Positions 38,380 to 57,111 of a DNA stretch of 64,000 nucleotides are shown piece after piece. The notes beneath the pieces were generated by a model, which had not been told where the DNA came from, searched no databases, and was given only the letters and a program-made list of their open reading frames with translations. Every line of letters begins with the position of its first letter. Position 1 is the first letter of the stretch. A program made the position numbers and the translations under genes. This DNA is from Thermoplasmatota archaeon (lineage in GTDB: Archaea > Thermoplasmatota > Penumbrarchaeia > JASLWR01), in the NCBI GenBank assembly GCA_030740765.1, contig JASLWR010000009.1, forward strand, positions 1,905 to 65,904, written 5' to 3'.

Positions 38380-41300
38380 GTGAAAATGTCCAAAAAGAAG
38401 GTAACACGGCGTGGTTTTTTAAAACTCCTAGGTGGTACAACCGCCTCACTTTTCATGTCCAGATTTATTCCAAAAGTGGTATTTGCCTCTGACAAATTGG
38501 AGCCCATAAAAAGTGAGATGAATCCCTTGGAGACTTATCCGAATCGGGACTGGGAACAAGTCTACCGTGACCTCTACTCCACAGATTCGAGTTATATATG
38601 GCTTTGTGCTCCAAACGACACACACGGTTGCCTATTAAGAGCTCATGTGAAGAACGGAGTTGTCAAATATATCGATCCGAGTTTTGGATACGGCAAGGCC
38701 ACTGATGTATATGGAAATCAGGCATCCTCCCGCTGGGATCCGCGGATATGTCCAAACGGCCATACCTACGTTCGCCGATGCTACAGCGATCGACGAGTAA
38801 AAGGGGCCTACATTCGTACAGGTTACAAGGATTGGGTTGATGCGGGAAGACCACGTGAATCCGATGGCCTGCCAAAGCGGGAATACTTCCTGAATCGAGG
38901 TAAGGATACTTGGGAGAATGTGTCATTTGATGAGGCCTATACGTATATTGCGGGAAGTCTCAAGAATGTGGCTGAAACATACACCGGTACGAAGGGGAAA
39001 GACTATCTTCTCGCCCAGGGCTATCACCCGGCCATGGTTGAGAAGACAAAGACCGACAGCGGAGAGTATGCCGGGATAAGGACCTTGAAATTCAGGGCAA
39101 GCATGGCATGGTTATCGGCCATGAGGTTCACCGGACTCTACCGTTTTGCAAACTCCCTAGCCTTGTTAGACGCAAACATAAGGGGAGTCGGCCCTGACGA
39201 GGCGACAGGTCCGAGGAGCTGGGATTCGTACTCATGGCACACAGACCTGCCGCCGGGACATCCAATGGTCCACGGGAACAAGACCATCGATTTTGACCTT
39301 TTCGCAGCCGAGTATTCAAATCTCATAACACTCTGGGGGATGAATTGGATTGCTACCAAAATGGTAGAAAGTCATTGGCTCACAGAAGCACGGATCAGGG
39401 GAGCGAAGGTGATAACCATCGCCACCGAATACCAGTCCACCTCGAACAAGGCCGATGAGGCGATCGTCATCAGGCCGGCAACTGATACAGCCTTCGCCCT
39501 AGGTGTGGCCCAGCACCTCATTGCCAAAGGAATTTACGATGCCGATTACATTAAAAAGTTCACTGATCTTCCCTTCCTTGTTAGAATGGATGACCTGACT
39601 CTTCTTCGGGCTAAGGACGTTAAGACTTTTGACCCGTATACTCAGGCAAATCTTTCCAATTACACCCAAATAGGAGGCACCGTTCCATCAAAGTTTATCA
39701 AGCAGGACAGAATGTACATATCTCAATCCCTAAGAGATGAATGGAACGATTATGTCGTTTGGGATTCGACACTTACATCTCCCAAGGTGATTACACGGGA
39801 TCAGGTTGGAGACGATTTCACTACTTCGGGATTGGACCCGGCCCTCACCGGGAGTTACCAGGTGACCTTGTTGGACGATGACGACACTCAAGTCGAAGTG
39901 AGACCTATCTTTGACCTGATCAAAGAATATGTTGATGATAACTTCACCCCTGCCAAAGCCTCCGAGGTATGCCGGGCTCCTCAAGCTGCTATCGAGGCCT
40001 TCGCCCAATCCATTGCAAACAACAATGGGAAAACCCTATTCACTGTGGGAATGGGACCAAACCATTACTGGACGAATGATCTTAAGGACCGGGCAATATT
40101 TCTCATTGCAAGCCTTACTGGTAGTGTAGGGAACTTCGGTGGAAATGTGGGCAGCTATTCTGGAAACTACAGGCTTGAGTTATTCAACGGCATCGGCCAT
40201 TGGGCTGCGGAGGACCCGTTCAACGTGGAACTGGATCCGTTGAAGCAGTCAGTAACCAAAAAATACAAAAAAACCGAATCAGCTCACTATTACAATTATG
40301 GTGACCGTCCTCTAGTAGTGGTGGATGGGGACGGAAAGGAACTCCATAACTTCACGGGGGATACCCACATGCCAACCCCCACCAAGACAACCTGGTGGGT
40401 GGATGCAAATTCCATCTTGGGGAATTCAAAATGGGCATATGACGTCATCGTGAACACTCTCCCACGAATCGAAATGATAGTTACAAATGAGTGGTTCTGG
40501 ACAAAGACTTGCGAGTACGCCGATATTGTACTTGGGGTTCCATCATGGATCGAACGGAAGATTCCGGATATATATGGCGCTTGTACAAACCCTTTCTTTC
40601 AGATGATAGTTCCGGCGGATATCGATTACATTCATGACGTCAGGGACGATCTGGAAACCTATGAGGGAGTTGCAAATAAGCTATCCGTTCTGACCGGTGA
40701 TACTCGGTTCAATGACCTTTGGAGCTTTAAGAACAGCGACGGCCGGCTTGATATGGCCAAGTATGGCCAGAGAGTTCTTGATTCCAGCAATACCTTGAAG
40801 GGGTACGAATGGGACAAGGTTCTCAAAGACTGCAAGGAGGGAATACCAAAATATGTCATGGTCCGAACAACACCCCGTGTCGGAGGATATGAACAGATAC
40901 ATGAATCCAAACCCTTTTACACTAAAACCGGACGTATGGAATTCTTCCGCGAAGAGCCTGAATGGAGGGATGCGGGGGAAAACCTTCCAATCTTCAGGGA
41001 GACAGTTGATTCCACCCACTACGAACCTGCCGTCATTGTGGATGAGGGGTCCAATCCTGCCATCCGGCCAATGGGACCTGCTGATTATGGATTTCACTTA
41101 GACCAGTTGGATGCCGAGACAAGACAGGTACGGAATGTGGTAAAAGGATGGTCCGATCTTAAAAACACCAAACACCCATTGGCAGTGGCAGATCCGGATT
41201 TCAAATTCATTCTTTATACTCCAAAATACCGTCATGCATGTCACTCAATGGCGGCATCCCAGGATTACAATGCCGTTTATTTCGGACCCTTTGGGGACTT

Positions 41301-41919
41301 CTATCGGAGGGATAAAAGAAAACCTTACGTTGGAGAAGGATACGTGGATATGAATCCGGATGATGCAAAGGAGCTGGGAATCGAGGATGGGGACTATATC
41401 TGGGTAGATGGAGATCCGAAGGACCGTCCCTATAGAGGGTGGAAAGAAGGGGACGACAATTACAAAGTAATGCGATGGCTCGTTCGGGCGAGATACTACC
41501 CCGGTATTCCGAGAGGCACAGCTCGATCTTGGTTTCACATGTATGGTGCTACTCACGGCAGCGTCGAGGGACATGAGAACAGATATGACGGGCTGGCCAA
41601 GAGTCCGACAACGGGCTACCAAGCTGCGTACAGGTACGGCAGCCATCAGTCAATTACCAGAGCCTGGCTCAAGCCCACACTTATGACCGACTCGCTTGTT
41701 CGGAAGAACGGTATGGGTCAGACGATTGGCAAGGGATACCACGTTGAAATCCATTGTGCCACCGGAGCACCCAAGGAGTCTTTCGTCAAGATAACCCACG
41801 CAGAGGATGGCGGCATCGGGGGTATTGGTCGTTGGGAACCAGCCGCCGAGGGCTATCGGCCTACTTATGAAAATTCAAAGATGAGCAAATACCTTGCGGG
41901 CAAGTATGGGGGTGATTGA
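38380..41919 (+). CDS. Tat-exported molybdopterin oxidoreductase catalytic (alpha) subunit, DMSO-reductase family type II (NarG/NxrA/EbdA-like)
   Basis: Twin-arginine signal (KVTRRGFLKLLGGTTASLF). Molybdopterin domains (IATEYQSTSNKADEAIVIRPATDTAFALGVAQHLI; GMGPNHYWTNDL...GGNVGSYSGNY). N-terminal FS0 region reads C-APN-D-THG-C-x39-C. Length of 1179 aa is in the NarG/NxrA range. Confidence 0.85.
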   Translation: MKMSKKKVTRRGFLKLLGGTTASLFMSRFIPKVVFASDKLEPIKSEMNPLETYPNRDWEQVYRDLYSTDSSYIWLCAPNDTHGCLLRAHVKNGVVKYIDPSFGYGKATDVYGNQASSRWDPRICPNGHTYVRRCYSDRRVKGAYIRTGYKDWVDAGRPRESDGLPKREYFLNRGKDTWENVSFDEAYTYIAGSLKNVAETYTGTKGKDYLLAQGYHPAMVEKTKTDSGEYAGIRTLKFRASMAWLSAMRFTGLYRFANSLALLDANIRGVGPDEATGPRSWDSYSWHTDLPPGHPMVHGNKTIDFDLFAAEYSNLITLWGMNWIATKMVESHWLTEARIRGAKVITIATEYQSTSNKADEAIVIRPATDTAFALGVAQHLIAKGIYDADYIKKFTDLPFLVRMDDLTLLRAKDVKTFDPYTQANLSNYTQIGGTVPSKFIKQDRMYISQSLRDEWNDYVVWDSTLTSPKVITRDQVGDDFTTSGLDPALTGSYQVTLLDDDDTQVEVRPIFDLIKEYVDDNFTPAKASEVCRAPQAAIEAFAQSIANNNGKTLFTVGMGPNHYWTNDLKDRAIFLIASLTGSVGNFGGNVGSYSGNYRLELFNGIGHWAAEDPFNVELDPLKQSVTKKYKKTESAHYYNYGDRPLVVVDGDGKELHNFTGDTHMPTPTKTTWWVDANSILGNSKWAYDVIVNTLPRIEMIVTNEWFWTKTCEYADIVLGVPSWIERKIPDIYGACTNPFFQMIVPADIDYIHDVRDDLETYEGVANKLSVLTGDTRFNDLWSFKNSDGRLDMAKYGQRVLDSSNTLKGYEWDKVLKDCKEGIPKYVMVRTTPRVGGYEQIHESKPFYTKTGRMEFFREEPEWRDAGENLPIFRETVDSTHYEPAVIVDEGSNPAIRPMGPADYGFHLDQLDAETRQVRNVVKGWSDLKNTKHPLAVADPDFKFILYTPKYRHACHSMAASQDYNAVYFGPFGDFYRRDKRKPYVGEGYVDMNPDDAKELGIEDGDYIWVDGDPKDRPYRGWKEGDDNYKVMRWLVRARYYPGIPRGTARSWFHMYGATHGSVEGHENRYDGLAKSPTTGYQAAYRYGSHQSITRAWLKPTLMTDSLVRKNGMGQTIGKGYHVEIHCATGAPKESFVKITHAEDGGIGGIGRWEPAAEGYRPTYENSKMSKYLAGKYGGD

Positions 41920-41921
41920 TC

Positions 41922-43070
41922 ATGGTCGATGTGTGGAATTGGCAGCTCAATCGGAAGATGGAATACAAGTATGATGAGACTCGGCCTTCCAAACAGGTCA
42001 GCGCTGTTTTCGACATTAACAAATGCATTGCATGCCAGACCTGCACTATGGCATGTAAAACCACCTGGACATCCGGGAAGGGTGAGGAGTATATGTTCTG
42101 GAATAGTGTCGAAACAAAGCCCTGGGGCTCCTATCCCATGGGGTGGGACGTAAGAATTCTCGATAAGCTCGGCTCGCAGCCATGGGACACTAACACCGAT
42201 CCCGTAACCTTTTCAGGTAAAACCATCTTCGAAAAAGTTCCGGAGGGTGAGGAGGTTGAAGGATGGCGCCCCGACGATATGGACTGGGCTTATCCGAACC
42301 GGGGCGAGGATGAGACCAACGAGATCATTGACAAGTCAAAGTACCACCTGACACTTCCCCATGCAATATGGAACTTCTATCTGGCTCGGATATGTATGCA
42401 CTGCACATATCCGGCTTGCGTCGCCGCTTGTCCTCGAAAAGCAATCTATAAGCGGAAAGAAGACGGGATCGTTCTCATCGACCAGAAGCGGTGCAGGGGG
42501 TACCGGGAGTGTGTACGAGCATGTCCGTATAAACGTTCCATGTACAACCACGTCACCCGAATATCGGAGAAATGCATCTTCTGCTATCCCGCGGTGGAGG
42601 AGGGGATTTGGCCCCGGTGCATGCGTAACTGTGTCGGTAAGATCCGCCTCGTCGGGTATGTTAACAAACCGGAAGATTCGGACCCCAAAAACCCCATAGA
42701 CTTCCTTGTACACGAAAAGAAGGTCGCACTCCCCCTTTATCCACAATTGGGAACCGAGCCAAATATATACTATATCCCTCCAATTCATTCGGATGCCAAG
42801 TTCTTGAAACAGATGTTTGGTCCCGGGGTTGATAATGCTGTCAAGATATATAAGAACATGCGGAACGGGAACGAACCCGAACTCAGAGGTGTTCTTCTCT
42901 TATGCACGAGCACGGACAAGATTTTAGGAAAGTTTGCAATCCGTTCGGACGAGGCCATCGGATACGATACGGATGGGAATGAGGTAGCGCGTCTCCCCTT
43001 GGTGGAGTCGCAGATCAGACGGGTCTTCCACGACTCGGAAAGGGAGGTCTACCGGCACAATATCACGTAG
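41922..43070 (+). CDS. iron-sulfur (beta) subunit, NarH/NxrB/EbdB-like four-cluster ferredoxin
   Basis: Cys motifs CIACQTCTMACK, CMHCTYPACVAACP, CRGYRECVRACP, CIFCYP...C. Translationally coupled (overlap) to the alpha subunit. Confidence 0.85.
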   Translation: MVDVWNWQLNRKMEYKYDETRPSKQVSAVFDINKCIACQTCTMACKTTWTSGKGEEYMFWNSVETKPWGSYPMGWDVRILDKLGSQPWDTNTDPVTFSGKTIFEKVPEGEEVEGWRPDDMDWAYPNRGEDETNEIIDKSKYHLTLPHAIWNFYLARICMHCTYPACVAACPRKAIYKRKEDGIVLIDQKRCRGYRECVRACPYKRSMYNHVTRISEKCIFCYPAVEEGIWPRCMRNCVGKIRLVGYVNKPEDSDPKNPIDFLVHEKKVALPLYPQLGTEPNIYYIPPIHSDAKFLKQMFGPGVDNAVKIYKNMRNGNEPELRGVLLLCTSTDKILGKFAIRSDEAIGYDTDGNEVARLPLVESQIRRVFHDSEREVYRHNIT

Positions 43071-43082
43071 GGAGGTGAAAGG

Positions 43083-44270
43083 ATGATCAAGAATAAAAAA
43101 ACCGTTATTATGTTTGTTATCACTCTATCTATCGTCCTCACGGTGCTCCAATATCAGGGTATTGTCCCGGGAACCTCGGACTCCGGAACTGAACTGAGAT
43201 CGGTCTATACGGAAGAGGATATCCCGGCCACAGACCCCGAATCAAGTTTATGGGATGAAGCCACATCCATCACAGTACCTATTTCAGGCCAGACAAGTAC
43301 CAATCCAAAACGGCTCTTGCCATCAGTGGAGTCCGTCCGTATCAAGTCCCTTAACAACGGCACCCACATCGCTTTTCGGATCACCTGGAATGACGCGGTC
43401 AAGAACAGCAAGACCACCAAGAATCAGGAGTTCCGTGACGCTCTTGCCATCCAGATCGCAGACAAGGGCTCCATCCCATTCGTCTGTATGGGATCTGCCG
43501 CAACCGGTACCACAAGAATGCATATTATGCAGTGGAAGTCCGATTGGCAGAGGGATATTGAAGAAGGGTTCCAGGATCTCGAGGACTCATTCCCCAACTT
43601 CTGGGTGGATTATTACCCCTATGCTGTGGGAGAGCCTCCTTATAGGGTTCCCGAGGACTTCCCCGGGAACGCAAGTCTCTACCTGCCCGGTTATCACGTG
43701 GGAAACCCATTCTCCGATCCATTGAAGGTCACTTCTGTGGAGGATGCCATAGCCGATGGTTACTCGACCATCACAACTCAAGCGATCCAGAACGCGGTTG
43801 GCCGCGGGGTCTGGAAGAACGGTACATGGAGCGTTGTGATCTCCAGGGCCTTGGACACCGGGGACCATGACGATACTGTGATCAAGGAGGATAATATCCT
43901 CGCCTTCGCCGTATGGGACGGGGAGAGCCAAGATGTGGGAGCGCGGAAGTCGGTCAGTAGCTGGGTCACCCTCAAGACCCGCGGTAAGACCAAAGAAGAA
44001 AATCCCCCATATGTTGCTCAGATCTGTATTCTGATATTGTATGTGATCGCTCTATTGGCTATCATCGGCCTCATTGGATTTGGACTGAAGCGAAAGAAAA
44101 AAGGGAAGGTCTCCAAGGAAGAAGGGGAGGCAACTGAGGATAAACCCGATTTAAAAGAAGAGGAGCAACCCAAGAAAACCGGGGAAGGTAAAAAGAAGAA
44201 GGTGGGACACTCTCAGAAGAAATCTCAGAAGAATAAGGTTAGCCCTGCAAAAAAGAGAAAAGGAGGTTGA
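43083..44270 (+). CDS. heme-b (gamma) subunit, ethylbenzene-dehydrogenase-gamma / NxrC-like (EB_dh domain) with a C-terminal TM anchor and Lys-rich tail
   Basis: N-terminal signal/TM, EB_dh-like beta-sandwich region (ITVPISGQ...IAFRITWND...AFAVWDGESQD), C-terminal TM (ICILILYVIALLAIIGLIGFGL) and a K/E-rich tail. Confidence 0.7.
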   Translation: MIKNKKTVIMFVITLSIVLTVLQYQGIVPGTSDSGTELRSVYTEEDIPATDPESSLWDEATSITVPISGQTSTNPKRLLPSVESVRIKSLNNGTHIAFRITWNDAVKNSKTTKNQEFRDALAIQIADKGSIPFVCMGSAATGTTRMHIMQWKSDWQRDIEEGFQDLEDSFPNFWVDYYPYAVGEPPYRVPEDFPGNASLYLPGYHVGNPFSDPLKVTSVEDAIADGYSTITTQAIQNAVGRGVWKNGTWSVVISRALDTGDHDDTVIKEDNILAFAVWDGESQDVGARKSVSSWVTLKTRGKTKEENPPYVAQICILILYVIALLAIIGLIGFGLKRKKKGKVSKEEGEATEDKPDLKEEEQPKKTGEGKKKKVGHSQKKSQKNKVSPAKKRKGG

Positions 44271-44276: not shown

Positions 44277-44990
44277 ATGACGGAAATAGATGATCATGTA
44301 CATGAATGCGAGATCTCTTTCACCAGATCCCAGGTGTACGGTCTCCTCGCCAGGATTTTCTCCAGTTCCGATCAGGTTCTTGATAACACCTTACTGCGGG
44401 ATCTCGGCCGAGTCACTTCCGAAACCTCGGATTACGTGGAATTGGACGATGATTTGACGCGCATAAAAGAGGCAATCCGCGCTATCGCCCCGACAGTAAG
44501 GGAAATGAACCAAGAATATACCCGCCTCTTTTCCAAGGGAGAGGCCCCCCCTTACGAATGCTCTTACGTACCCTCATCCAGGGTCACACATGAACTTGCT
44601 GATATCTCGGGTTTCTTTTTAGCTTTCGGCGTTCAACCAAAGGGGGAGCGCCAGGATAATCTCAGCAGCGAACTCGAGTTCATGTCCTTCCTGTGTCTTA
44701 AAGAATCCATCGCCCAATCCAACCAGATGCTGGAGGAGGCCAAGATATGCCGCGATGCACAAACCAAGTTTCTCACCGACCACCTAGGCAGGTGGATCGG
44801 CGTCTACCACCGCCTTGTAACAGACAAGACTAACTTCCCGATCTATCCCCTGTTGGTGGGTCTCGTTCATAAGATAGTCACACGGGACGCTTCATATCTG
44901 GGGGCCCGAATCGACGAAATCATAGAGGTGCCAATAGATGAGGCCCAAGACCTACCTGGATGCGGGATCGGCTCGAACTCGATATGCTAA
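44277..44990 (+). CDS. TorD/DmsD/NarJ-family redox-enzyme maturation chaperone (delta subunit)
   Basis: TorD-like signature (YTRLFSKGEAPPYECSY...LDHLG-like HLGRWIG). Confidence 0.75.
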   Translation: MTEIDDHVHECEISFTRSQVYGLLARIFSSSDQVLDNTLLRDLGRVTSETSDYVELDDDLTRIKEAIRAIAPTVREMNQEYTRLFSKGEAPPYECSYVPSSRVTHELADISGFFLAFGVQPKGERQDNLSSELEFMSFLCLKESIAQSNQMLEEAKICRDAQTKFLTDHLGRWIGVYHRLVTDKTNFPIYPLLVGLVHKIVTRDASYLGARIDEIIEVPIDEAQDLPGCGIGSNSIC

Positions 44991-45018
44991 TCTGCTTCCG
45001 GTATTTGTAAAGCTTTTG

Positions 45019-45990
45019 ATGATCTCTGCCCTAGTAGAGTTCATCATCCTTCGGGGTCTCAACAGGATGGCGGACCTCTATCCTTGGTGGATGAAGAGGG
45101 GCGGTACTGCCATAATGGTATTCATGGGAAACATCGCTTACAATTTAGCCTTCATAACATCAATAACGGTCGTTCTCATTATAGCTTATGTCTTTTGGAA
45201 CAAGGAAAAAAGACTATCACTGTTCCTGTTAATATGGGTCACGGTTCTCATTGGTGTCTCGGTCATCGGGTCGTGGATCGAGCTGATAGTGTTATTGGGC
45301 AGCATCACGGCGATCCTTCTCCTGTTTACCCTTGTGATGCGGAAGTCGCACAGGATTTTTTTCTCCCAAGGACATGAAACATTAGATACCGAAGCATCGG
45401 GAAAAATTCATCGTGGTGCGCTTCTACTGTTTTTTCTTTTCATCCTTATCGCATACCTCAGTGCTTTATACCTACACATAGGAAACGATCTCGCAAATCT
45501 GGGTTTGTCCCCTCCCGGAAGGACCGGGGTATATGGGATTGGAGAGGTCTTCGCTGTCGCATCGGCATTCCTGGCCTTGGTGGCGTTCTGGCGGAGGCCT
45601 CGCTTAGTCGATCTGGTCCTTCCGACCATAGTGGTCGGTGGTATGTTGACGTTCGCATTCTTACGCTCCGACATCTTACCCCTGGTGACCATGTGGTCAT
45701 TGGGTTTCCAGTTTTACCTGTTCCTACCGATCTATATTGGGGCCCTCTGGTGTTACCTTCTCACCTTATTTCTCCTCGTGCGCAGCAAGGGACGGAGAAA
45801 GTACCTCGTACCCGGCCTTTTGCTCATAGCTATCAGTGGACGCATGTTGAACGATTTCTATCTCATACAGATGGCAATGGTCGGTGTGCTCCTCCTCACC
45901 TTGGCCGACGACTTGGTCGAGTTTACCCTTGATACGAAAAGAAAATTGGTGCCAATGAAAATGGTTGAACATGGCCACCCGACCCGGTAA
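45019..45990 (+). CDS. polytopic membrane protein of unknown function (about 8 TM), last gene of the molybdoenzyme operon
   Basis: Multi-TM ORF overlapping the end of the chaperone gene. Start chosen at an internal Met to minimise overlap. No known quinol-oxidase motifs recognised. Confidence 0.45.
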   Translation: MISALVEFIILRGLNRMADLYPWWMKRGGTAIMVFMGNIAYNLAFITSITVVLIIAYVFWNKEKRLSLFLLIWVTVLIGVSVIGSWIELIVLLGSITAILLLFTLVMRKSHRIFFSQGHETLDTEASGKIHRGALLLFFLFILIAYLSALYLHIGNDLANLGLSPPGRTGVYGIGEVFAVASAFLALVAFWRRPRLVDLVLPTIVVGGMLTFAFLRSDILPLVTMWSLGFQFYLFLPIYIGALWCYLLTLFLLVRSKGRRKYLVPGLLLIAISGRMLNDFYLIQMAMVGVLLLTLADDLVEFTLDTKRKLVPMKMVEHGHPTR

Positions 45991-46082: not shown

Positions 46083-48503
46083 ATGTTCAGAGGCTCTAAT
46101 AAGGAGAAAAATAGTAAACCACTTGAAAAAACTCGCGCGCTGCCACTGATTGTCGCGATCAGTATGATATTGGTCGTTCTCCTTGTGGTAGACCTTGGTA
46201 CAATGGGTGATTCAAATAGAGCCTCCGACAATATGTGTATAGGTTGTCATGGTAACCGTTTTAAGGAGTATAGCAATCTTCTCCCCGGCGACCCCTTATC
46301 TGTGCTGCCAACAGAATTCACCGAGAATTCAACAGAGATTAAGATAGCTGTCGAGATAATCGACACGGGAGATCCCGGACCTCTGTCGTATTTCGAGATA
46401 TCCTCGCTACGAGTGACCCTTAACAGTATCGACAATAAATTGGACATTCCCAACCCTCAGCAGGAGAAAAATAATCTTTTTCCAGACGATAAGGTGATTT
46501 TTAATTGGTCGGTTACGGGGGTCCTACCGGGTGAGGACACCTTGACCATCAGCCTCTATGCATTAAATCCACATTATAATTGCGTGGCTATAGATACTTA
46601 TAGCTATATCGCCTCGATTATACTTCCATATGAGATACCTTCACAGCCTCAAAACGTCACGGCGATCCCGGGTGATGGTTATATAGTGTTATCATGGCAA
46701 GAACCGAACGATGATGGAGGTATACCCGTAATGGAATACAAAATATATCGTGGTGGAGATCCCGGTGGTGAAACTTATTATGATCTGGTGAGCAGCACAA
46801 TGACCTCATATAATGATACCTCGGTTACCAATGGAGAGACCTATTATTATTATATAACCGCAACAAATTTAATCGGTGAGTCCGAAAAGAGTCCCGAGGT
46901 CTTTGCTACCCCATATGGACGTCCTACGCCGCCATTGAATCCGAAGATAAATAGTGGAAATAGTTATGTTGAACTGGACTGGGAAACATCGATTGACGAC
47001 GGCGGATCACCAATAATGTTCTACAATATATACCGGGGGAATTCCTCGGGCAACGAGACTTACCATATTTCCCAGAATATTAATAAAACCTCATACAACG
47101 ATACAGCAGTTACTAATGGGGAAACATATTACTACTATGTTACCGCTGTTAATTCGGTCGGTGAATCCGATCCCGGTATCGAGGTGTTTGCATCACCCGG
47201 AAAAGATGTTACAAACCCTTCGGCCCCGGAAAATTTCGAGGCCATGGCAGGAAACGGTTTTGTCCACTTGTACTGGGAGATTCCATCTGATGACGGTGGT
47301 TCTGTTATAATGGGATATAAGATATTCCGGGGTATAAATTCCGGAGATTTTACTTTCTTTGATTCCGTATTGGGTTTCACAACCTCATACAACGATACCT
47401 CTGTTATCAACGGAGAAATTTATTATTACTATGTTACAGCGGTCAACCCGGTAGGAGAATCAGGGCCGAGTGATGTCAATATCACAAGCCCACGTGGCCT
47501 TCCGGAACCTCCAAAGGAAGTTCAGGCTACTATGGGCAAGGGGTATGTCATGTTAATCTGGAAAGCCCCGGATAACGATGGGGGAGCTATAATAACTGCT
47601 TATAGGATATACAGAGGCAATGGATCAAGCAATTTTATCGACTTTTCCCTGGTCAGCGGGTTAACGCTATCTTACAACGATACCTCTGTTATAAACGGAG
47701 TATCTTATTACTATTATGTTATTGCAATCAACTCCTTGGGGGAGAGCGATCCCAGTAATGAGGTAAACGTAATATCTCAGAGAGAACCTACGGCGCCCCG
47801 GAACCTGAGCGGGATACTTGGTCCCGGATATGTACATCTCTCATGGGAACCTCCGGTGGAGGACGGAGGTTTACCTATATTGATATATAATATCTATCGC
47901 GGTACTTTTTCGGGCGCCGAAACCTATCATTCATCTGTCAGTTCAATATTGACCCAATACCGAGATGCGGATTCAAACATATCATATTATAATAATATAT
48001 ATTATTATGTCACTGCAGTCAATTTTGTCGGAGAAAGCGCCCCGACCGATGAAGTTAATGTGACCATCCAAGAGGTGGGCACTGATTCCACTGAACCCGA
48101 TCTTCCTGAGGTAGCCTCGTACTTTCCCAAAAACAGGAATTTGCAGGCTAACCTGAATGAGGTTGTGGTATTCTATATGGAAGCTGACGGTAATGTATCT
48201 ATTAACTGGTATGTGGATAACGAGCCTTACGCAACCGGGACATCTACATTGAGCTATCCTGTAGTAAAACCCGGCACACGTACGATCAGGGCACGAATAA
48301 CGGATGAGATTTCCGATCGTTCCATTGAGATATCCTGGAATATCGTGACCACAGAAGATGATGCCAACATCGAGACTAACGAGCAGAGCAGTATCTCCCC
48401 GCTTCCTGGTTGGATGAGGAACTCTGTACTCTACGGCGGCATGGTCGTGCTCATGGTGCTGGGCGTATATCTTGCGATTTTTTACAGGAAGAGGAAACCA
48501 TGA
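46083..48503 (+). CDS. membrane-anchored protein with an N-terminal CXXCH motif (CIGCH), five tandem fibronectin type III domains, an Ig-like domain and a C-terminal TM helix
   Basis: N-terminal TM, NMCIGCHGN, five ~94-aa repeats each ending Y(K/N)IYRG...SYNDTSVTNGETYYYYVTAVN..GES, C-terminal TM (LYGGMVVLMVLGVYLAIFY). Confidence 0.7.
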   Translation: MFRGSNKEKNSKPLEKTRALPLIVAISMILVVLLVVDLGTMGDSNRASDNMCIGCHGNRFKEYSNLLPGDPLSVLPTEFTENSTEIKIAVEIIDTGDPGPLSYFEISSLRVTLNSIDNKLDIPNPQQEKNNLFPDDKVIFNWSVTGVLPGEDTLTISLYALNPHYNCVAIDTYSYIASIILPYEIPSQPQNVTAIPGDGYIVLSWQEPNDDGGIPVMEYKIYRGGDPGGETYYDLVSSTMTSYNDTSVTNGETYYYYITATNLIGESEKSPEVFATPYGRPTPPLNPKINSGNSYVELDWETSIDDGGSPIMFYNIYRGNSSGNETYHISQNINKTSYNDTAVTNGETYYYYVTAVNSVGESDPGIEVFASPGKDVTNPSAPENFEAMAGNGFVHLYWEIPSDDGGSVIMGYKIFRGINSGDFTFFDSVLGFTTSYNDTSVINGEIYYYYVTAVNPVGESGPSDVNITSPRGLPEPPKEVQATMGKGYVMLIWKAPDNDGGAIITAYRIYRGNGSSNFIDFSLVSGLTLSYNDTSVINGVSYYYYVIAINSLGESDPSNEVNVISQREPTAPRNLSGILGPGYVHLSWEPPVEDGGLPILIYNIYRGTFSGAETYHSSVSSILTQYRDADSNISYYNNIYYYVTAVNFVGESAPTDEVNVTIQEVGTDSTEPDLPEVASYFPKNRNLQANLNEVVVFYMEADGNVSINWYVDNEPYATGTSTLSYPVVKPGTRTIRARITDEISDRSIEISWNIVTTEDDANIETNEQSSISPLPGWMRNSVLYGGMVVLMVLGVYLAIFYRKRKP
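46639..48075. repeat. five tandem ~282-bp coding repeats (FN3 domains)
   Basis: Repeated protein-level units are visible in the translation. The DNA copies are diverged. Confidence 0.6.
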
Positions 48504-50122
48504 GAAAAATGGTTATTCTCTTTCTAATAACCATCATTCTGGTCCCCACAGCTGGCGGAGATTCCCATCGAAATACCGATTGTTTATCCTGTCATTCTTC
48601 ATCATACCCCATTTCCGGGTACGTCTATTATCCCCCGACGGTTTTTTTAAATGTTTCCATGTTTACAAAACGTGGGGTGGAATTTCCCGTAGAAGTGGGA
48701 ATTGATTTTATTGATTATGATATAAAGGAACTTCTAATAGAAATTACTCAAGATCCGAAAATCTTTAGTTTCAATGAATCCACTATAGAAGCATATGATC
48801 TGAAAAAGGGTACGAGATTCAAATTCACCGCTACTGCAATAAAGAACGGGGTTTCCAAAATAATCGTAACGGTAAATGCGATAACCTATTATGAGCATAA
48901 AACCATTGATGGATACGATTATCGGGAAGAAGTGATAGAGAAAAGTAGGATCATCAGTGTTGGTAGTACATCGTTGGTACCTTCATCCTGGAACGTATTG
49001 TTGGATGATGCGGGCGGGGAAATAACCCTGACCGCAGTGGAGGACATCACCGATCTAACTGTTTTCACATCATCCTCTCTCGAAGCAAAGCCCACCGGCA
49101 GGAACTTTCTATCGGCAGATAGTGAACTGGACATCTTCTTGCGCCCCACATCTCGAAAAAAGATCGATGAGAATATAATAATATCGTGGCGGGTGAACAA
49201 CACACCCTATGCTATTCCAATAAGTGTTTTATACAATCCCCAAGCGCCCAAAGTAACTGATTATTTTCATTGGATCGGAAGAATCACCGGTATATCTACT
49301 CTTGTACTGCTTTTGATCTCCATAGTTCTCGGCGGTATATGGAATACCGGAGGTTATCTAAACCGGATGATCAGCGCCAAGCGAAGGGTGAGGTATCATT
49401 GCGCCGTATCGTGGTTTCTTTTTGGATTGGCTATCTATCACGGCTCCGTTCTTCTATCCGGTCCTTACACTGACCAGCTCTGGAACATTTGGATCATATT
49501 AGGTTATCTCGCCGCCGTTACGATGCTGGTGGTGAGCCTGACCGGGAGCTTTATGAAGTTTACGATAAAGTTGATAGGTGCCAAGAACTGGCGCAGGGTC
49601 CACCTTTACTCAACATTTCTTTCCCTTGCATTTGTAATTTTTCATGGGATCGCCATGGGAACGGATTTTACATTCATTAGGGAACGAGAGGATATTGTTT
49701 TCTGGGCGATTATGGGTACGGTATTGTTCGCTGGAGTTATTGTTTTGACGCTCTATTTAAACGAAAGAGAAAAAGGACTGACTCGGATACAACATCATTC
49801 CCTTGATCCTAGGGGATCCGATGATTCTGATGATGATTTATACTGGCAAGACGATTATCGAGAAGACGATTGTCGGGAAGACGATCACAGATTGGATGTT
49901 TACGGGACGGACGACCCATGGCAAGACGATTATCGTCAAGATAAATACGGATCGGATGATTACTACAATGAAGCAAAAAAAGAAGTTGAGATACCATGTC
50001 CCAAGTGTGGTGAACAATTATCCCCACCCTATAAGTTCTGCACTACCTGCGGTTTGAGGCTAGCTAAGGAAAACTTTAAAATTGGAAAAAGGAAAAAGTG
50101 GAGGAGTGGTAACAGAGGATAG
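48500..50122 (+). CDS. fusion protein: N-terminal CXXCH domain (CLSCH) + ferric-reductase-like di-heme-b transmembrane domain + acidic DDY-repeat tail + C-terminal zinc ribbon
   Basis: ATGA overlap with the previous gene. DCLSCHSS after an N-terminal TM. Two TM helices each carry His pairs 14 residues apart (YHCAVSWFLFGLAIYHG; VHLYSTFLSLAFVIFHG), as in FRD/cytochrome b561-type bis-heme domains. Tail: DDYREDD.. repeats and CPKCGEQL...CTTCGL. Confidence 0.65.
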   Translation: MRKMVILFLITIILVPTAGGDSHRNTDCLSCHSSSYPISGYVYYPPTVFLNVSMFTKRGVEFPVEVGIDFIDYDIKELLIEITQDPKIFSFNESTIEAYDLKKGTRFKFTATAIKNGVSKIIVTVNAITYYEHKTIDGYDYREEVIEKSRIISVGSTSLVPSSWNVLLDDAGGEITLTAVEDITDLTVFTSSSLEAKPTGRNFLSADSELDIFLRPTSRKKIDENIIISWRVNNTPYAIPISVLYNPQAPKVTDYFHWIGRITGISTLVLLLISIVLGGIWNTGGYLNRMISAKRRVRYHCAVSWFLFGLAIYHGSVLLSGPYTDQLWNIWIILGYLAAVTMLVVSLTGSFMKFTIKLIGAKNWRRVHLYSTFLSLAFVIFHGIAMGTDFTFIREREDIVFWAIMGTVLFAGVIVLTLYLNEREKGLTRIQHHSLDPRGSDDSDDDLYWQDDYREDDCREDDHRLDVYGTDDPWQDDYRQDKYGSDDYYNEAKKEVEIPCPKCGEQLSPPYKFCTTCGLRLAKENFKIGKRKKWRSGNRG

Positions 50123-50387
50123 GGTACAAATAGAGGTCGGGAAAACATACCGAGAATGCAGTGCTAAATTATTTCCCCATGAGAGGTTCTGTATCGGCTG
50201 CGGAACGAAAATGGTAAGTTGAAAAGGTGTTCATATGGCTGGAAAGAATAGGAAAAAAGACGTTAGTTTATACTGCATTATTCGTTGCGGGAATTATTAT
50301 TGTTGCATCGGCTATCGCTCAATATTCACAAAATAGCTTCAGCGAAGGATGTAACAACGAGGGAGAAAGTGAAAAAAACTCATGGCT

Positions 50388-52043
50388 TCAATCGATATTA
50401 TCTTTCTTCGCCCATTGAACCATTATGTCCTTTAGCTGCGCCTTCTGAGCAGCATCTAGTTCCCCCGCCTGATTTAGTACTTGCTCCACTTCTTCCGGTT
50501 GGATGCGTCCGTCGGCTAGTGCGGTATTGACAGCTGCTATAAGCTCAGGCGAGGTTTTTTCAAGGCTCAAAGATATATTTCTTACGCGCGCCTTACTTAG
50601 GCTGTCATCTATTTTCTTCTCGATAACAAGGTACTGGTTTTCGTCGAGCTTACCCTTGCGGTAGTGTCTCGTGACCTCCTCGCGTAAGTTGGCGAGCTCA
50701 GTATCCAAATGATCCAAGTTGTTCCCCTGTTCTTTCACCTTCTTATCGATTTTGTCCAGATAGCCATGGACATTGGCTTTCTGTCGCCGGAGCATTACCC
50801 AACCCACGATAGAAATGAGTATCGCACCAACCGCAAATAATGGCTCCCAATAGCGTTCTAAAAAACTCTGCTTTCCCACTTCGGCACCACCAACTGTCTC
50901 ACCCTTCCCAATCGTCTTGAAGGTATATTCATAGTCAAGCATTTTATTGCCGGCGAGGTCTTCCACATCAGAGATGTGTACTGTATAGGTAGTCCGGGCA
51001 GTGAGCAGATCAGTGCTTGTGAAAGTGAGAATGGAACGGTTGTTCTCAACGGTAAGGGAAAGATTGCCTGACAGCGGGGTCTCGTCAGCCAATAGCTCTA
51101 TCCGGGCTCCATCACGCACCTCTTCGTTGAATCGTGCTGTAATATTAGTCGCCAGGTTAACATTCTCCGCATTTGGCATCGGTCGCAGCTGCTCTGCGAT
51201 CACCATCGGTTCGATCGTGTCTACAGTCACCCCAACGACTACCCGACTATCCTCGGTACCCAGCCACTCATGGGTGGGTGTGCGAAGGTCTATGATGAGT
51301 AGATGGAAGCCCTCGGTTAAGGATGCATAGGTAAGGGGCGCCGTGGTAGTGTGCATCTGGCGGTTGTCAGCATCCACCTCGTCATACATGTAGTGCATGT
51401 GCGGTCCACCGTAGTAACCACCTGATATGGTATGGTTCTCAACGGTGAATTTGACCACTACATTCGTACCAACATAGTCACCATCCCGGGGGTTTTGTAC
51501 GACCAATCGCGCCTTGCCTACTGTAAAAGCGAGTTTGACATCAGTTAGGGATGCTCCGGAAGAATCGTTTACATTACTAAGATCCATTGTGATCTCCTCG
51601 CCAAATGGGTAGAGGTGAAAAATAGATCCCTGACCAAGTCCGCAGTCACGATCAGGAAGGTTGACACGAATCATGTTCCCGCTGATTGAAAGGGTAACTG
51701 CTAAGGGACCGAAGACATTGCTATTTACACTCACTATCGCAGTGGATATATCGGGGGAGGTGCCATAGTCCACGAGAATATGGTCAAGGTCATGCCAATT
51801 GACGAGGCTACCGTTGGCAGGAGTAAAAATTGGCTCTACGGCGCGCCCTCTAACGCTATCTTCGACGCTACCACCAGCCTCGGCTGCTGTCTCATCTGCA
51901 ATCATTGGTAGAAAGATTAGTGACACTCCAAACAAGATAAGAACAAGCAGTGCGGATGAGTGCATCCAATTTATCCGCGAAGGTGTCTTGCCGGGTATCG
52001 GTAATATACTATTCTTTATCTTGTCTGTCTCCTCATTACTCAT
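50388..52043 (-). CDS. cell-surface protein with Ig-like (SbsA/Big-type) domains, a TM anchor and a cytoplasmic coiled-coil tail
   Basis: N-terminal signal/TM, beta-rich ectodomain, TM (LFAVGAILISIVGWVML), then a heptad-rich K/E tail. Confidence 0.55.
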   Translation of the reverse strand: MSNEETDKIKNSILPIPGKTPSRINWMHSSALLVLILFGVSLIFLPMIADETAAEAGGSVEDSVRGRAVEPIFTPANGSLVNWHDLDHILVDYGTSPDISTAIVSVNSNVFGPLAVTLSISGNMIRVNLPDRDCGLGQGSIFHLYPFGEEITMDLSNVNDSSGASLTDVKLAFTVGKARLVVQNPRDGDYVGTNVVVKFTVENHTISGGYYGGPHMHYMYDEVDADNRQMHTTTAPLTYASLTEGFHLLIIDLRTPTHEWLGTEDSRVVVGVTVDTIEPMVIAEQLRPMPNAENVNLATNITARFNEEVRDGARIELLADETPLSGNLSLTVENNRSILTFTSTDLLTARTTYTVHISDVEDLAGNKMLDYEYTFKTIGKGETVGGAEVGKQSFLERYWEPLFAVGAILISIVGWVMLRRQKANVHGYLDKIDKKVKEQGNNLDHLDTELANLREEVTRHYRKGKLDENQYLVIEKKIDDSLSKARVRNISLSLEKTSPELIAAVNTALADGRIQPEEVEQVLNQAGELDAAQKAQLKDIMVQWAKKDNID

Positions 52044-57059: not shown

Positions 57060-57111
57060 CCCGTTGATTCAGATATTTTATTATTTCAATTATCTATTGA
57101 TCCGATGGCGA

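What the first reader, a model, noticed from the sequence alone, without database searches (positions are those of the whole stretch)
48500..50122. Unusual single-polypeptide fusion: CXXCH module + FRD-type di-heme-b membrane domain + Asp/Tyr-rich repeat + zinc ribbon
The TM helices contain two His pairs with the i/i+14 spacing that coordinates two b hemes in NOX/FRE/FRD-family reductases. The N-terminus carries CLSCH and the C-terminus a tandem acidic repeat (DDYREDDCREDDHRLDVYGTDDPWQDDYRQDKYGSDDYY) followed by CPKCG...CTTCG. The gene overlaps its upstream FN3/CXXCH neighbour by ATGA, which suggests co-translation. An FRD domain combined with a c-type heme module and a cytoplasmic Zn ribbon is not a described architecture.
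Basis: partly seen in the sequence, partly recalled or inferred. Interest (0 to 1): 0.7.

Follow-up and report, generated by a model that had tools for sequence, protein, structure and literature searches.

The report
Archaeal membrane cytochrome b/c fusion protein
This gene encodes a membrane protein from an uncultured marine-type archaeon that most likely carries two b-type haems across the membrane and one covalently bound c-type haem outside; it belongs to an undescribed but recurrent archaeal family that probably moves electrons between the cell membrane and enzymes or substrates outside the cell.

Summary
Window 48500-50122 (+) encodes a 540-aa protein with these parts in order:
- a Sec signal peptide and a CLSCH motif;
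- two beta-sandwich domains;
- five TM helices with two H-x13-H pairs;
- a cytoplasmic Asp/Tyr-rich pentapeptide-repeat tail;
- a CxxC-x10-CxxC zinc ribbon.

It overlaps its CIGCH/FN3 neighbour by ATGA.

The window protein itself misses Pfam Ferric_reduct and b561. However, 36 of 51 family members hit Ferric_reduct, and a profile comparison with a bona fide PF01794 protein aligns all four His (E 8e-10).

The fusion is not a one-off. A profile search found 318 representative clusters, about 60 of them full-length. All named members are archaeal (Thermoplasmatota/Euryarchaeota MAGs). The core is signal peptide + CxxCH + two beta-sandwiches + four TM helices. The acidic tail is limited to one subclade, and the zinc ribbon to this lineage.

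The conserved unit is a gene trio:
- a paralogous CxxCH surface protein;
- this protein;
- a ~145-aa mini-CcsA haem-handling protein, which is missing in this window.

Here the pair ends an operon for a Tat-exported type II DMSO-reductase-family molybdoenzyme.

The best reading is a b2c transmembrane electron conduit, analogous to MsrQ. It is a new variant of a known kind.

The parts
48500..50122 (+). Target gene, 540 aa: a cytochrome b2c fusion (signal peptide, CxxCH, two beta-sandwiches, FRD-like TM bundle, acidic tail, zinc ribbon)
   Evidence: ORF and start; homologue alignment; AF2 models
48500..48559 (+). Sec-type signal peptide (MRKMVILFLITIILVPTAGG)
   Evidence: Read directly from the sequence; N-termini of homologues align. 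The cleavage site is inferred.
48581..48595 (+). CLSCH haem-c attachment motif (aa 28-32)
   Evidence: Invariant in all full-length close homologues; present in 40 of 51 family members
48632..48964 (+). Beta-sandwich 1 of the extracellular haem-c module. It includes the invariant H133 (48896-48898), the candidate distal haem ligand.
   Evidence: AF2 pLDDT 72-90; H133 invariant. hhalign aligns it with the 'NPH' His of the partner's module, E 2.8e-12.
48974..49234 (+). Beta-sandwich 2 (Ig/PapD/ASH-like linker domain)
   Evidence: AF2; Foldseek hits to tandem Ig-like folds
49262..49786 (+). FRD-superfamily TM bundle, five helices. Haem-b ligands are H300 (49397-49399), H314 (49439-49441), H368 (49601-49603) and H382 (49643-49645).
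   Evidence: TM-only AF2 model, pLDDT 90 and pTM 0.81. Four His invariant or nearly so in 51 sequences. Family Pfam hits. hhalign to a PF01794 protein.
49850..49966 (+). Cytoplasmic Asp/Tyr-rich tail with [Q/E]DD[Y/C/H]R pentapeptide repeats
   Evidence: TRF 15-bp period x2.5 copies; composition. Compositionally similar tails occur only in P0002-P0007 and P0012. Disordered in AF2.
49997..50053 (+). Zinc ribbon, CPKC-x10-CTTC
   Evidence: Pfam Zn_Ribbon_1 24.5 bits (cut-off 25), plus Zn_ribbon_3 and DZR. Absent from every homologue outside the 90% cluster.
46083..48503 (+). Partner gene, 806 aa: N-terminal anchor, CIGCH (46236-46250), a paralogous haem-c beta-sandwich with 'NPH' His164 (46572-46574), at least four FN3 domains (Pfam), and a C-terminal TM anchor
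   Evidence: Pfam fn3; alignment A6; hhalign with the target's N-module. Orthologue 46% identical in L018. A partner is adjacent in seven lineages.
38380..41919 (+). Catalytic subunit of a type II DMSO-reductase-family molybdoenzyme, with a Tat signal (TRRGFLK)
   Evidence: Pfam and NCBIfam TIGR03479, 268 bits, below cut-off; N-terminus
41916..43070 (+). Fe-S beta subunit (NarH/EbdB-like)
   Evidence: TIGR03478, E 6e-81
43083..44270 (+). EB_dh-type haem-b gamma subunit with a C-terminal TM anchor
   Evidence: PF09459, E 2e-23; TIGR03477
44277..44990 (+). NarJ/TorD-type chaperone
   Evidence: PF02613, E 4e-18
44938..45990 (+). 350-aa polytopic membrane protein with no known family, in the same operon
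   Evidence: No Pfam or NCBIfam hit
50148..50222 (+). Degenerate second zinc-ribbon-like remnant (YRECSAKLFPHERFCIGCGTKMVS*) in the +1 frame, just past the stop codon
   Evidence: Translation of the three frames

Best explanation
The gene encodes a membrane cytochrome with three haems, a 'b2c' protein.

Anatomy and topology.
- After Sec export and signal-peptide removal, the N-terminal CLSCH receives a covalently bound haem c.
- That haem sits on a beta-sandwich outside the cell. The invariant His133 is the probable sixth ligand.
- A second beta-sandwich links this module to a TM bundle homologous to the ferric-reductase domain (FRD) of MsrQ, NOX, FRE and STEAP.
- H300 and H368 hold a cytoplasm-proximal haem b. 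H314 and H382 hold a surface-proximal haem b.

Proposed electron path.
- Electrons enter from the membrane quinol pool. Most family members have no cytoplasmic domain at all, so quinol is the most likely donor.
- They cross the membrane through the two b haems and reach the haem c.
- From there they pass to the paralogous haem-c module of the co-translated FN3 partner, or directly to an extracytoplasmic acceptor.

Role in this window.
- The gene pair ends an operon for a Tat-exported molybdoenzyme (type II DMSO-reductase family, Nar/Ebd-like) that has an EB_dh haem-b subunit and no NarI-type subunit.
- The pair is therefore the likely link between that enzyme and the membrane, as MsrQ is for periplasmic MsrP.
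- The direction of flow depends on whether the enzyme reduces or oxidises its substrate.

Lineage-specific parts.
- The Asp/Tyr-rich tail and the zinc ribbon are cytoplasmic additions in this lineage. They sit where NOX carries its dehydrogenase domain. Their role is not established; docking or metal binding are possibilities.

Shown: the motifs, their conservation, the topology, FRD homology and synteny. Inferred: haem occupancy, the electron donor, the partner contacts and the direction of flow.
For: Motifs and conservation.
- CxxCH, H133 and the four TM His are invariant in close homologues.
- The four TM His and the CxxCH Cys28/His32 stay conserved across 51 divergent members.

Topology.
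- The His residues lie inside confidently modelled helices.
- The positive-inside rule places the ectodomain outside and the tail inside.

FRD homology.
- 36 of 51 members hit PF01794, with a best E-value of 8.8e-9. P0039 and P0075 score above the gathering threshold, end to end on the model.
- hhalign to the PF01794 protein P0189 gives 96.5% probability and E 8e-10, with all four His in register.

Capacity to make cytochrome c in this lineage.
- An archaeal-type CcmE (CPSKY), ccmABCD and a Trx-CcdA fusion lie near the P0004 homologue.
- A mini-CcsA gene sits directly downstream of homologues in 8 loci.

The partner.
- The two N-modules are homologous (hhalign 97.6%, E 2.8e-12).
- The pair is adjacent and often overlapping in 7 lineages.
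- P0034 is a natural fusion of the partner type and the target type.

Operon context.
- The catalytic subunit has a Tat signal.
- The gamma subunit is EB_dh-type and the chaperone NarJ-type.
- No NarI-type cytochrome b and no Rieske/cytochrome b genes were found in the operon.

Precedents.
- MsrQ, an FRD protein, serves the molybdoenzyme MsrP (PMC3591440, PMC12525009).
- DUF4405, PepSY-like and MsrQ-like cytochromes feed extracytosolic redox proteins (PMC11334425).
Against: - The window protein itself fails all curated FRD and b561 thresholds.
- Only this lineage has the pair next to the molybdoenzyme operon. Relatives carry it beside housekeeping genes, FeoB or ccm genes. The link to the Nar-like enzyme therefore rests on one operon.
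- No ccm or WWD gene lies within the 64-kb window.
- Nothing identifies a quinol site.
- The CxxCH region is modelled with low confidence (pLDDT below 50), so the haem-c geometry and H133 ligation are unverified.
- If the partner's signal anchor is cleaved, its haem module would sit at the far end of an FN3 stalk, remote from the target's haem.
Confidence: 0.6

Rival explanations
1. The protein and its FN3 partner form a stand-alone cell-surface metal (ferric) reductase or general extracellular electron-export module. It would reduce Fe(III) chelates or other external acceptors. Its position behind the molybdoenzyme operon would be incidental, or a recent recruitment.
For: - The trio is conserved without any molybdoenzyme in most lineages.
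- FeoB ferrous-iron transporter genes lie 1-3 kb upstream in L005 and L010.
- The eponymous function of FRD proteins is ferric reduction (PMC3591440).
- The window also encodes a DOMON + b561 surface protein 2.3 kb away. That architecture resembles eukaryotic ferric-chelate reductases (from my own knowledge).
Against: - L005 and L010 are close relatives, so the FeoB linkage counts as one observation.
- In the window, gene spacing and overlaps fit a single operon with the molybdoenzyme (44270/44277; 44990/44938; 45990/46083; 48503/48500).
- No siderophore or iron-regulation genes were seen nearby.
Confidence: 0.2
2. The FRD-like bundle works with the mini-CcsA as a minimal split cytochrome c synthase, analogous to CcsB+CcsA or to CcmF. 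The TM b haems would keep the haem iron reduced, or relay haem to the external WWD site. The CxxCH modules would be its dedicated substrates.
For: - A mini-CcsA of 131-168 aa lies immediately downstream in 8 loci. It has P-His1 'IHPP', a WWD motif and P-His2 'GLHSYG'.
- In the one mini-CcsA aligned to CcsBA structures (from L005), TM-His2 is replaced by Asn. The L006 sequence also shows no His in that stretch.
- Like CcsB, the protein combines a large external domain with His-bearing TM helices.
Against: - Sequence homology is to FRD electron-transfer proteins, with four canonical bis-His ligands at i/i+14. That pattern implies stably bound haems rather than a transit site.
- The window gene has no WWD neighbour, and the P0004 clade sits next to a full ccmABCDE set instead.
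- Dedicated synthases encoded beside their substrates are a known pattern (NrfI, NrfEFG; from my own knowledge). That explains the synteny more simply.
Confidence: 0.12
3. The motifs are not haem sites. CxxCH would be a thiol-redox or metal site, and the TM His residues would bind another metal or have a structural role. The protein would then be a surface adhesin or anchor with a polytopic membrane domain.
For: - No curated haem-protein model reaches its threshold on the window protein.
- Six distant relatives have CxxHH instead of CxxCH.
- The ectodomains are generic Ig-like folds.
Against: - The four His are in register with those of FRD proteins.
- Linkage to haem-handling genes is strong.
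- A purified representative of the related DUF4405 family binds haem b (PMC11334425).
Confidence: 0.05

Closest known systems
MsrQ (YedZ) of the MsrPQ system
   Same: An FRD-superfamily haem-b membrane protein with no dehydrogenase domain. It passes electrons from the membrane or cytoplasm to an exported molybdoenzyme (PMC3591440, PMC12525009). Its operon logic matches the window.
   Different: [quoted passage not shown] (That MsrQ has six TM helices is from my own knowledge.)
- It has no ectodomain and no haem c, and it is bacterial.
- Here there are four His, 4-5 TM helices and an N-terminal extracellular haem-c module. The partner enzyme belongs to the type II DMSO-reductase family, not the MsrP sulfite-oxidase fold (the MsrP fold is from my own knowledge).
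NOX / FRE / STEAP ferric-reductase domain (Pfam PF01794)
   Same: Two His pairs on alternate TM helices that both run from inside to outside, giving an inner and an outer haem b. All four His align.
   Different: - The canonical domain has six TM helices, with His on TM3 and TM5 and 14/13 spacing.
- It carries a cytosolic FAD/NADPH domain (a F420-type domain in STEAP).
- Here the first helix is missing, so the N-terminus faces outward. The spacing is 14/14. The position of the dehydrogenase domain is empty, or holds an acidic tail plus a zinc ribbon.
- The 2013 survey lists Fer2, Rieske, DOMON and peroxidase fusions but no cytochrome c, and it regarded archaeal FRDs as rare transfers (PMC3591440).
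DUF4405 / PepSY-like / MsrQ-like flavinylation-associated cytochromes and FezC
   Same: A four-His TM cytochrome core that delivers electrons to an extracytosolic redox module with a covalently attached cofactor. The window protein's only Pfam TM hit is DUF4405, at 21 bits (PMC11334425).
   Different: Those systems are described mainly in bacteria. They have six TM helices and use ApbE-flavinylated FMN domains. Here the covalent cofactor is haem c, the domain is fused in cis, and no apbE gene is nearby.
Cytochrome b-c fusions of metal-reducing bacteria (for example Geobacter CbcL), from my own knowledge
   Same: One polypeptide joins a di-haem-b membrane domain to periplasmic c-type haem(s) for outward electron transfer from quinol.
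   Different: CbcL uses a HydC/FdnI-type (Ni_hydr_CYTB) b domain and a multihaem, mainly alpha-helical c domain. Here there is an FRD-type bundle and a single haem on a beta-sandwich.
DOMON + cytochrome b561 proteins (CYBDOM / FRRS1-type), including the window's own 881-aa protein
   Same: A TM di-haem-b domain fused to an extracellular haem-binding beta-sandwich.
   Different: b561 has its His residues on four helices, and the DOMON domain binds haem b non-covalently. The two are not homologous to this protein.
Cytochrome f and Cyc2 (from my own knowledge)
   Same: A single CxxCH within about 10-25 residues of the mature N-terminus, carried on a beta-rich domain.
   Different: No detectable sequence relation. 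Cytochrome f uses its N-terminal amino group as haem ligand. Cyc2 is an outer-membrane porin fusion.
CcsBA / CcmF haem-handling proteins
   Different: The target has no WWD motif. It has two bis-His sites and its own CxxCH, and its sequence kinship is with FRD.

Membership tests
Ferric-reductase domain (FRD) superfamily, Pfam PF01794 | A significant match to the PF01794 profile | tested here: inconclusive
   The window protein gives no hit at E<=0.1. At family level, 36 of 51 members hit (best E 8.8e-9), and P0039 (33.0 bits) and P0075 (33.2 bits) exceed the 28-bit cut-off over model positions 1-121. hhalign of the family profile against the PF01794 protein P0189 gives 96.5% probability and E 8e-10.
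Ferric-reductase domain (FRD) superfamily, Pfam PF01794 | Four canonical haem-ligating His: two on each of two alternate TM helices, about 13 residues apart | tested here: met
   H300/H314 and H368/H382 are invariant or nearly so in 51 sequences. 49 of 51 keep both H-x13-H pairs. All four are in register with P0189. They lie inside helices in the AF2 models.
Ferric-reductase domain (FRD) superfamily, Pfam PF01794 | Six TM helices, with His on TM3 and TM5 and a cytoplasmic N-terminus | tested here: not met
   The window protein has five helices and most relatives have four. The His residues are on TM2 and TM4, and the N-terminus is extracellular.
Ferric-reductase domain (FRD) superfamily, Pfam PF01794 | Binds haem b and transfers electrons across the membrane | not testable with these tools
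   Needs spectroscopy of the purified protein.
NOX/FRE 'long form' | A C-terminal FAD- and NAD(P)H-binding dehydrogenase domain | tested here: not met
   The C-terminus is a disordered acidic tail plus a zinc ribbon. There are no FAD_binding or NAD_binding hits.
Cytochrome b561 (PF03188) | Four His on four consecutive helices (TM2-TM5) of a six-TM core, and a profile match | tested here: not met
   No PF03188 hit for the window protein. Only 1 of 51 relatives hits, at E 0.039. The His residues are on two helices.
DUF4405 (PF14358) | A profile match above the 26.7-bit gathering score | tested here: not met
   21.0 bits over aa 334-382. 17 of 51 relatives give sub-threshold hits.
c-type cytochrome | A CxxCH motif on an exported segment | tested here: met
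   CLSCH lies 8 residues after the predicted signal-peptide end. The motif is present in 40 of 51 relatives at the same position.
c-type cytochrome | A cytochrome c maturation system in the organism | tested here: inconclusive
   None lies within the 64-kb window. Relatives have ccmABCDE with archaeal CPSKY-type CcmE and a Trx-CcdA fusion nearby, or a mini-CcsA directly downstream. The rest of this genome could not be examined.
c-type cytochrome | Covalently bound haem | not testable with these tools
   Needs haem staining or mass spectrometry.
Zinc ribbon (PF13240 / PF13248 / DZR) | A CxxC-x(n)-CxxC knuckle pair and a profile match | tested here: inconclusive
   CPKC-x10-CTTC is present. The best score is 24.5 bits against a cut-off of 25. 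AF2 confidence is low (pLDDT 51-66). There is no conservation depth, because the ribbon occurs only within one 90% cluster.
MsrQ-type electron donor to an exported molybdoenzyme | Encoded with, and physically serving, an extracytoplasmic molybdoenzyme | tested here: inconclusive
   It is the last gene of a same-strand, tightly spaced cluster with a Tat-signal molybdoenzyme subunit. This linkage is seen only in this lineage. Physical interaction is untested.

The most novel reading that the evidence does not exclude
The conserved trio (CxxCH surface protein, CxxCH-FRD protein, ~145-aa mini-CcsA) could be a self-contained minimal cytochrome c system. The FRD di-haem bundle would stand in for the TM-His haem site that the mini-CcsA has lost. 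That would make it a split, stripped-down cytochrome c synthase. The same proteins would then act as a three-haem electron wire to the archaeal cell surface. This would be a new type of haem-attachment machinery, and the first native, widespread FRD lineage in archaea.
Probability: 0.12. Interest if true: 0.8.

Novelty: new variant of a known kind. Interest (0 to 1): 0.55.

Why it matters
- Exported (Tat-dependent) Nar-type molybdoenzymes in archaea need a route for electrons between the membrane and the outside. The known solutions are Rieske/cytochrome b modules or NarM (from my own knowledge). This operon suggests a third: an FRD-type b2c cytochrome.
- The family shows that FRD proteins are not marginal imports in archaea, as was thought in 2013 (PMC3591440). 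It adds covalently bound haem c to the list of cofactor modules fused to FRD.
- The family defines a previously unmodelled beta-sandwich mono-haem-c domain that two adjacent genes share.
- The tightly linked mini-CcsA is a compact candidate for studying the minimal requirements of haem attachment.
- All of this is testable by expressing two or three small genes.

Tried and rejected
- Full-length Foldseek against PDB returned only tandem Ig-like folds and said nothing about the TM domain.
- TM-only Foldseek against PDB gave no significant hit; the best E-value was 0.34.
- The afdb50 library was unavailable.
- Profile searches of PDB sequences with A2 and A5 returned nothing at E<=10.
- The search for homologous proteins with the TM profile A5 returned only 3 proteins, a limit of the word index. 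It did yield the PF01794 protein used.
- The search for related loci failed with the broad alignment. With the narrower A4 it gave only 2 genome loci and 6 metagenome loci.
- A search of the window for a WWD or ccm gene was negative.
- I first read the 881-aa neighbour as a CxxCH protein. It actually has CTCH, a CxCH motif.
- b561 kinship is rejected because of the His topology and the lack of profile hits.
- The alternative TTG start at 48410 is rejected. It would add 30 residues before the signal peptide, and no homologue shares them.
- Literature searches found no description of this family. I searched on FRD, DUF4405, nitrate reductase in Thermoplasmatota and nitrate reductase in Marine Group II archaea. 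The Marine Group II nar genes reported there are described as a membrane-bound NarGHI operon (PMC6461757). I take that to be a different enzyme type from the Tat-exported one here.

Full report
**1. The observation**

The ORF listing shows an ORF at 48410-50122 (+). The ATG at 48500 is the credible start, for three reasons:
- it follows an AGAGGA motif;
- it overlaps the TGA of ORF 46083-48503 as ATGA;
- it gives an N-terminus (MRKMVILFLITIILVPTAGG) that aligns with the signal peptides of all full-length homologues.

- CLSCH at aa 28-32;
- H300/H314 and H368/H382, each with i/i+14 spacing;
- the acidic stretch at aa 451-489;
- CPKC-x10-CTTC at aa 500-517.

Tandem Repeats Finder detects a 15-bp unit in 2.5 copies at 49848-49885. 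In frame this reads QDDYR-EDDCR-EDDHR. Residues 441-495 are 35% Asp and 13% Tyr.

The motifs are not chance. In ORFs of 80 aa or more, the whole 64-kb window contains only two CxxCH motifs, and they are in these two adjacent genes. The motifs are also conserved across a divergent family (section 3).

**2. Structure and topology**

An AlphaFold2 model built on 11 homologues (mean pLDDT 68.6) shows:
- two beta-sandwiches, at aa 45-155 and 159-245;
- five long helices, at 255-278, 293-320, 330-350, 361-386 and 397-429;
- a disordered tail.

A TM-only model built on 38 sequences is confident, with pLDDT 90 and pTM 0.81. It places all four His inside helices.

Lys and Arg cluster in the 279-299 and 351-367 segments. 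The 321-329 loop has none. With an exported N-terminus, this gives the following layout:
- TM2 and TM4 run from inside to outside;
- H300 and H368 lie near the cytoplasm;
- H314 and H382 lie near the surface;
- the tail and zinc ribbon are cytoplasmic.

**3. What the membrane domain is**

Pfam on the window protein gives no Ferric_reduct or Cytochrom_B561 hit at E<=0.1. It gives only DUF4405 at 21.0 bits against a 26.7-bit cut-off.

The wider family changes the picture.

- A word-indexed homologue search found only 11 proteins.
- An exhaustive profile search of 1.84 billion representatives found 318 clusters at E<=1e-3. About 60 cover the full architecture. Most of those are 400-440 aa with only four TM helices.
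- I scanned 51 members against Pfam. 36 hit Ferric_reduct (best E 8.8e-9), 17 hit DUF4405 and 10 hit Ni_hydr_CYTB.
- Two members exceed the PF01794 gathering score over the entire model.
- A profile comparison of the TM alignment with a bona fide PF01794 protein (P0189) gives 96.5% probability and E 8e-10 over 149 columns. All four His and the WRxxH and GTD motifs are in register.
- P0189 in turn weakly matches the SpNOX TM domain in the PDB.

I conclude that the bundle is a divergent FRD-superfamily di-haem domain. Compared with the canonical FRD, it lacks the first of the six helices, so its N-terminus faces outward. Its His spacing is 14/14, against 14/13 in NOX2 (PMC3591440). It is not b561-like, because its His residues are on two helices rather than four.

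**4. The extracellular module and the partner**

Conservation of the haem-c module:
- CxxCH is invariant in all full-length close homologues, together with S33, G40, Y41, P46 and H133.
- Across the 51 sequences, 40 have one CxxCH at residue 22-49 (or residue 91 in one case), 6 have CxxHH at the equivalent place, and 5 have neither. Those 5 are short or truncated forms, plus one with a Cx4CH-like variant.

Relation to the upstream gene:
- The N-terminal ~150 aa of the upstream FN3 protein (CIGCH...NPH) are homologous to the target's N-module. hhalign gives 97.6% probability and E 2.8e-12, with CxxCH aligned to CxxCH and the 'NPH' His aligned to H133.
- This comparison has a caveat. Three of the eight sequences in the partner alignment (P0028, P0031, P0035) are themselves FRD-family members that carry the partner-type module.
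- The two adjacent genes therefore share a mono-haem-c beta-sandwich module that no library models. There is no Pfam, NCBIfam or PDB sequence hit.
- P0034 (1374 aa) is a natural fusion of a partner-type protein, a zinc-ribbon-like CSEC...CDRC segment and a target-type protein.

The beta-sandwiches resemble PapD/ASH/Ig folds generically.

**5. Genomic context**

In the window, the same strand carries these genes in order:

| Coordinates | Product |
|---|---|
| 38380-41919 | Tat-signal (TRRGFLK) catalytic subunit of a type II DMSO-reductase-family enzyme |
| 41916-43070 | Fe-S subunit |
| 43083-44270 | EB_dh haem-b subunit with a C-terminal anchor |
| 44277-44990 | NarJ-type chaperone |
| 44938-45990 | Unclassified 350-aa polytopic protein |
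| 46083-48503 | FN3 partner |
| 48500-50122 | Target |

Gaps between these genes are 93 bp or less, or the genes overlap. No NarI-type or Rieske/cytochrome b genes are present.

The same arrangement occurs on two other contigs that carry the near-identical protein (L008 and L009).

Elsewhere the molybdoenzyme is absent, and a different unit is conserved:
- A partner-type CxxCH protein is adjacent in seven lineages: the window, L018, L003/L006, L005, L010, L019 and L014.
- A 131-168-aa 'Cytochrom_C_asm' protein lies immediately downstream in eight loci: L003/6, L005, L010, L012, L013, L015, L016 and L018.

That small protein is a trimmed CcsA/CcmC core:
- it has P-His1 ('IHPP'), the WWD motif and P-His2 ('GLHSYG');
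- PF01578 matches it at E 1e-17 to 1e-26;
- its best PDB matches are the C-terminal part of CcsBA;
- in the L005 sequence that was aligned, the position of TM-His2 is Asn.

In the P0004 clade the gene sits about 7 kb from ccmA-E, with the archaeal CPSKY-type CcmE, and beside a Trx-CcdA fusion and a copper ATPase. FeoB precedes the trio in two related loci.

The window itself contains no WWD or ccm gene.

**6. The tail and the zinc ribbon**

- Acidic, aromatic-rich tails occur only in the 5-TM subclade (P0002-P0007, P0012). They are similar in composition but cannot be aligned.
- The zinc ribbon is found only in the window's 90%-identity cluster. It scores just under the Pfam threshold.
- Just past the stop codon, in the +1 frame, lies a degenerate second ribbon (RECSAK...FCIGCG). 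A TM-like segment follows in another frame.
- This suggests that the ribbon was captured from a decaying small zinc-ribbon/TM gene. That is an inference.

**7. Mechanism**

The best-supported reading (confidence about 0.6) is a three-haem b2c cytochrome that carries electrons across the membrane.

- Most members have no cytoplasmic domain, and in the 4-TM forms the C-terminus is outside. The most economical donor or acceptor on the membrane side is therefore the quinone pool.
- A weakly MenA-like prenyltransferase, a polyprenyl-diphosphate synthase and a GGR-family reductase lie 6-10 kb away. This is only a hint.
- In this window the pair plausibly connects the exported molybdoenzyme to the membrane, as the FRD protein MsrQ does for MsrP (PMC3591440, PMC12525009). 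My confidence in that specific link is about 0.35, because it rests on a single operon.

Rival readings:
- a stand-alone surface ferric reductase or electron-export module (0.2);
- non-haem motifs (0.05).

**8. Comparison with what is known, and novelty**

- The 2013 FRD survey lists Fer2, Rieske, DOMON, peroxidase-like and FAD/NAD fusions but no cytochrome c. It found only four archaeal members, which it attributed to horizontal transfer (PMC3591440).
- The 2024 work on DUF4405, PepSY-like and MsrQ-like cytochromes describes four-His TM cores that feed flavinylated extracytosolic domains (PMC11334425). The present family is the haem-c counterpart, fused in cis.
- NCBI names the window protein 'hypothetical protein', and names two relatives 'ferric reductase-like transmembrane domain-containing protein', from Thermoplasmatota and Euryarchaeota MAGs.
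- I found no paper describing the family, its haem-c module or the trio.

I rate it a new variant of a known kind. The FRD core and the idea of a b/c fusion are familiar. The beta-sandwich haem-c module, the 4-5-TM FRD with an outward-facing N-terminus, the archaeal distribution and the linked mini-CcsA are not.

**9. Verdict**

This is a real and coherent feature, and a member of an uncharacterised archaeal family. The zinc ribbon and the acidic tail are peripheral, lineage-specific additions.

Interest is 0.55. It would matter to specialists in bioenergetics and cytochrome biogenesis, and it can be tested directly with a few constructs. It is not a new principle unless the synthase reading proves true.

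Noticed in passing
window 52461-55106 (-): An 881-aa surface protein with this layout: signal anchor, 'choice-of-anchor V' domain carrying CTCH (CxCH, not CxxCH), four Big_7 Ig domains, DOMON, and a C-terminal cytochrome b561 domain. It is a second, unrelated TM di-haem-b protein with an extracellular haem-type domain, 2.3 kb from the target. Its layout recalls eukaryotic FRRS1/CYBDOM proteins.
   Followed up: partly
window 50148-50222 (+1 frame relative to the target) and about 50235-50420: A degenerate zinc-ribbon-like coding remnant (YRECSAKLFPHERFCIGCGTKMVS*) lies directly after the target's stop codon. A hydrophobic TM-like segment follows in a third frame. This looks like a decayed small zinc-ribbon/TM gene, and may be the source of the target's lineage-specific zinc ribbon.
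   Followed up: partly
L003/L006 9279-9725, L005 11247-11687, L010 7154-7582, L018 4955-5350, L012, L013, L015, L016: A mini-CcsA/CcmC-like haem-handling protein of 131-168 aa lies immediately downstream of target homologues in eight loci. It has P-His1 'IHPP', a WWD motif and P-His2 'GLHSYG'. In the L005 copy that was aligned to CcsBA, TM-His2 is replaced by Asn. It is absent from the window.
   Followed up: partly
P0034 (1374 aa, from the representative search): A natural fusion of three parts: a partner-type protein (CH...AHNPH module, CARDB-like repeats, TM helix), a zinc-ribbon-like CSEC...CDRC segment, and a complete target-type CxxCH-FRD protein.
   Followed up: no
window 44938-45990 (+): A 350-aa polytopic membrane protein with no Pfam or NCBIfam match. 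It overlaps the NarJ-like gene by 53 nt inside the molybdoenzyme operon and could be an unrecognised membrane subunit.
   Followed up: no
window 37095-37586 (-): An IS200-type (Y1_Tnp) transposase lies about 800 bp upstream of the molybdoenzyme operon, on the opposite strand. This is compatible with the operon having been acquired by transfer.
   Followed up: no
window 38380-41919 (+): The catalytic molybdoenzyme subunit matches the type II DMSO-reductase alpha model at only 268 bits (cut-off 985), and matches narG and ebdA even less well. It is a divergent, unassigned member of the family with a clear Tat signal, so its substrate is unknown.
   Followed up: partly
window 55938-60375: A cluster of a geranylgeranyl-reductase-family flavoprotein, a polyprenyl-diphosphate synthase and two UbiA-family prenyltransferases, one of them weakly MenA-like. 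This may be quinone (or lipid) side-chain biosynthesis next to the respiratory genes.
   Followed up: partly
L001 16811-20640 and L007 10175-14438: Near the P0004 homologue lie ccmA, ccmB, ccmC, a 55-aa ccmD-like gene, a CcmE with the archaeal CPSKY motif, a 365-aa protein (beta-domain plus Trp-rich TM region) with no family, a Trx-CcdA fusion of 591 aa and a copper P-type ATPase with HMA proteins.
   Followed up: partly
L005 4568-6574 and L010 469-2478: FeoB ferrous-iron transporter genes lie a few genes upstream of the trio in two related Thermoplasmatota MAG contigs.
   Followed up: no
window 49271-49273 (aa 258): The window encodes Trp258 where the database representative P0001 has Cys. 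This is the only difference between the two 540-aa proteins.
   Followed up: no
P0100, P0105, P0108, P0120, P0126, P0133 (representative search): A distant subgroup of 497-549 aa keeps the FRD bundle but has larger ectodomains. It has CxxHH in place of CxxCH, which may be a single-thioether or non-covalent haem, or a different metal site.
   Followed up: no
window 60569-63280 (-): A 903-aa fusion of a GlcD-like FAD-binding oxidase with a Fer4/CCG (HdrD/GlpC/TfrB-like) module.
   Followed up: no
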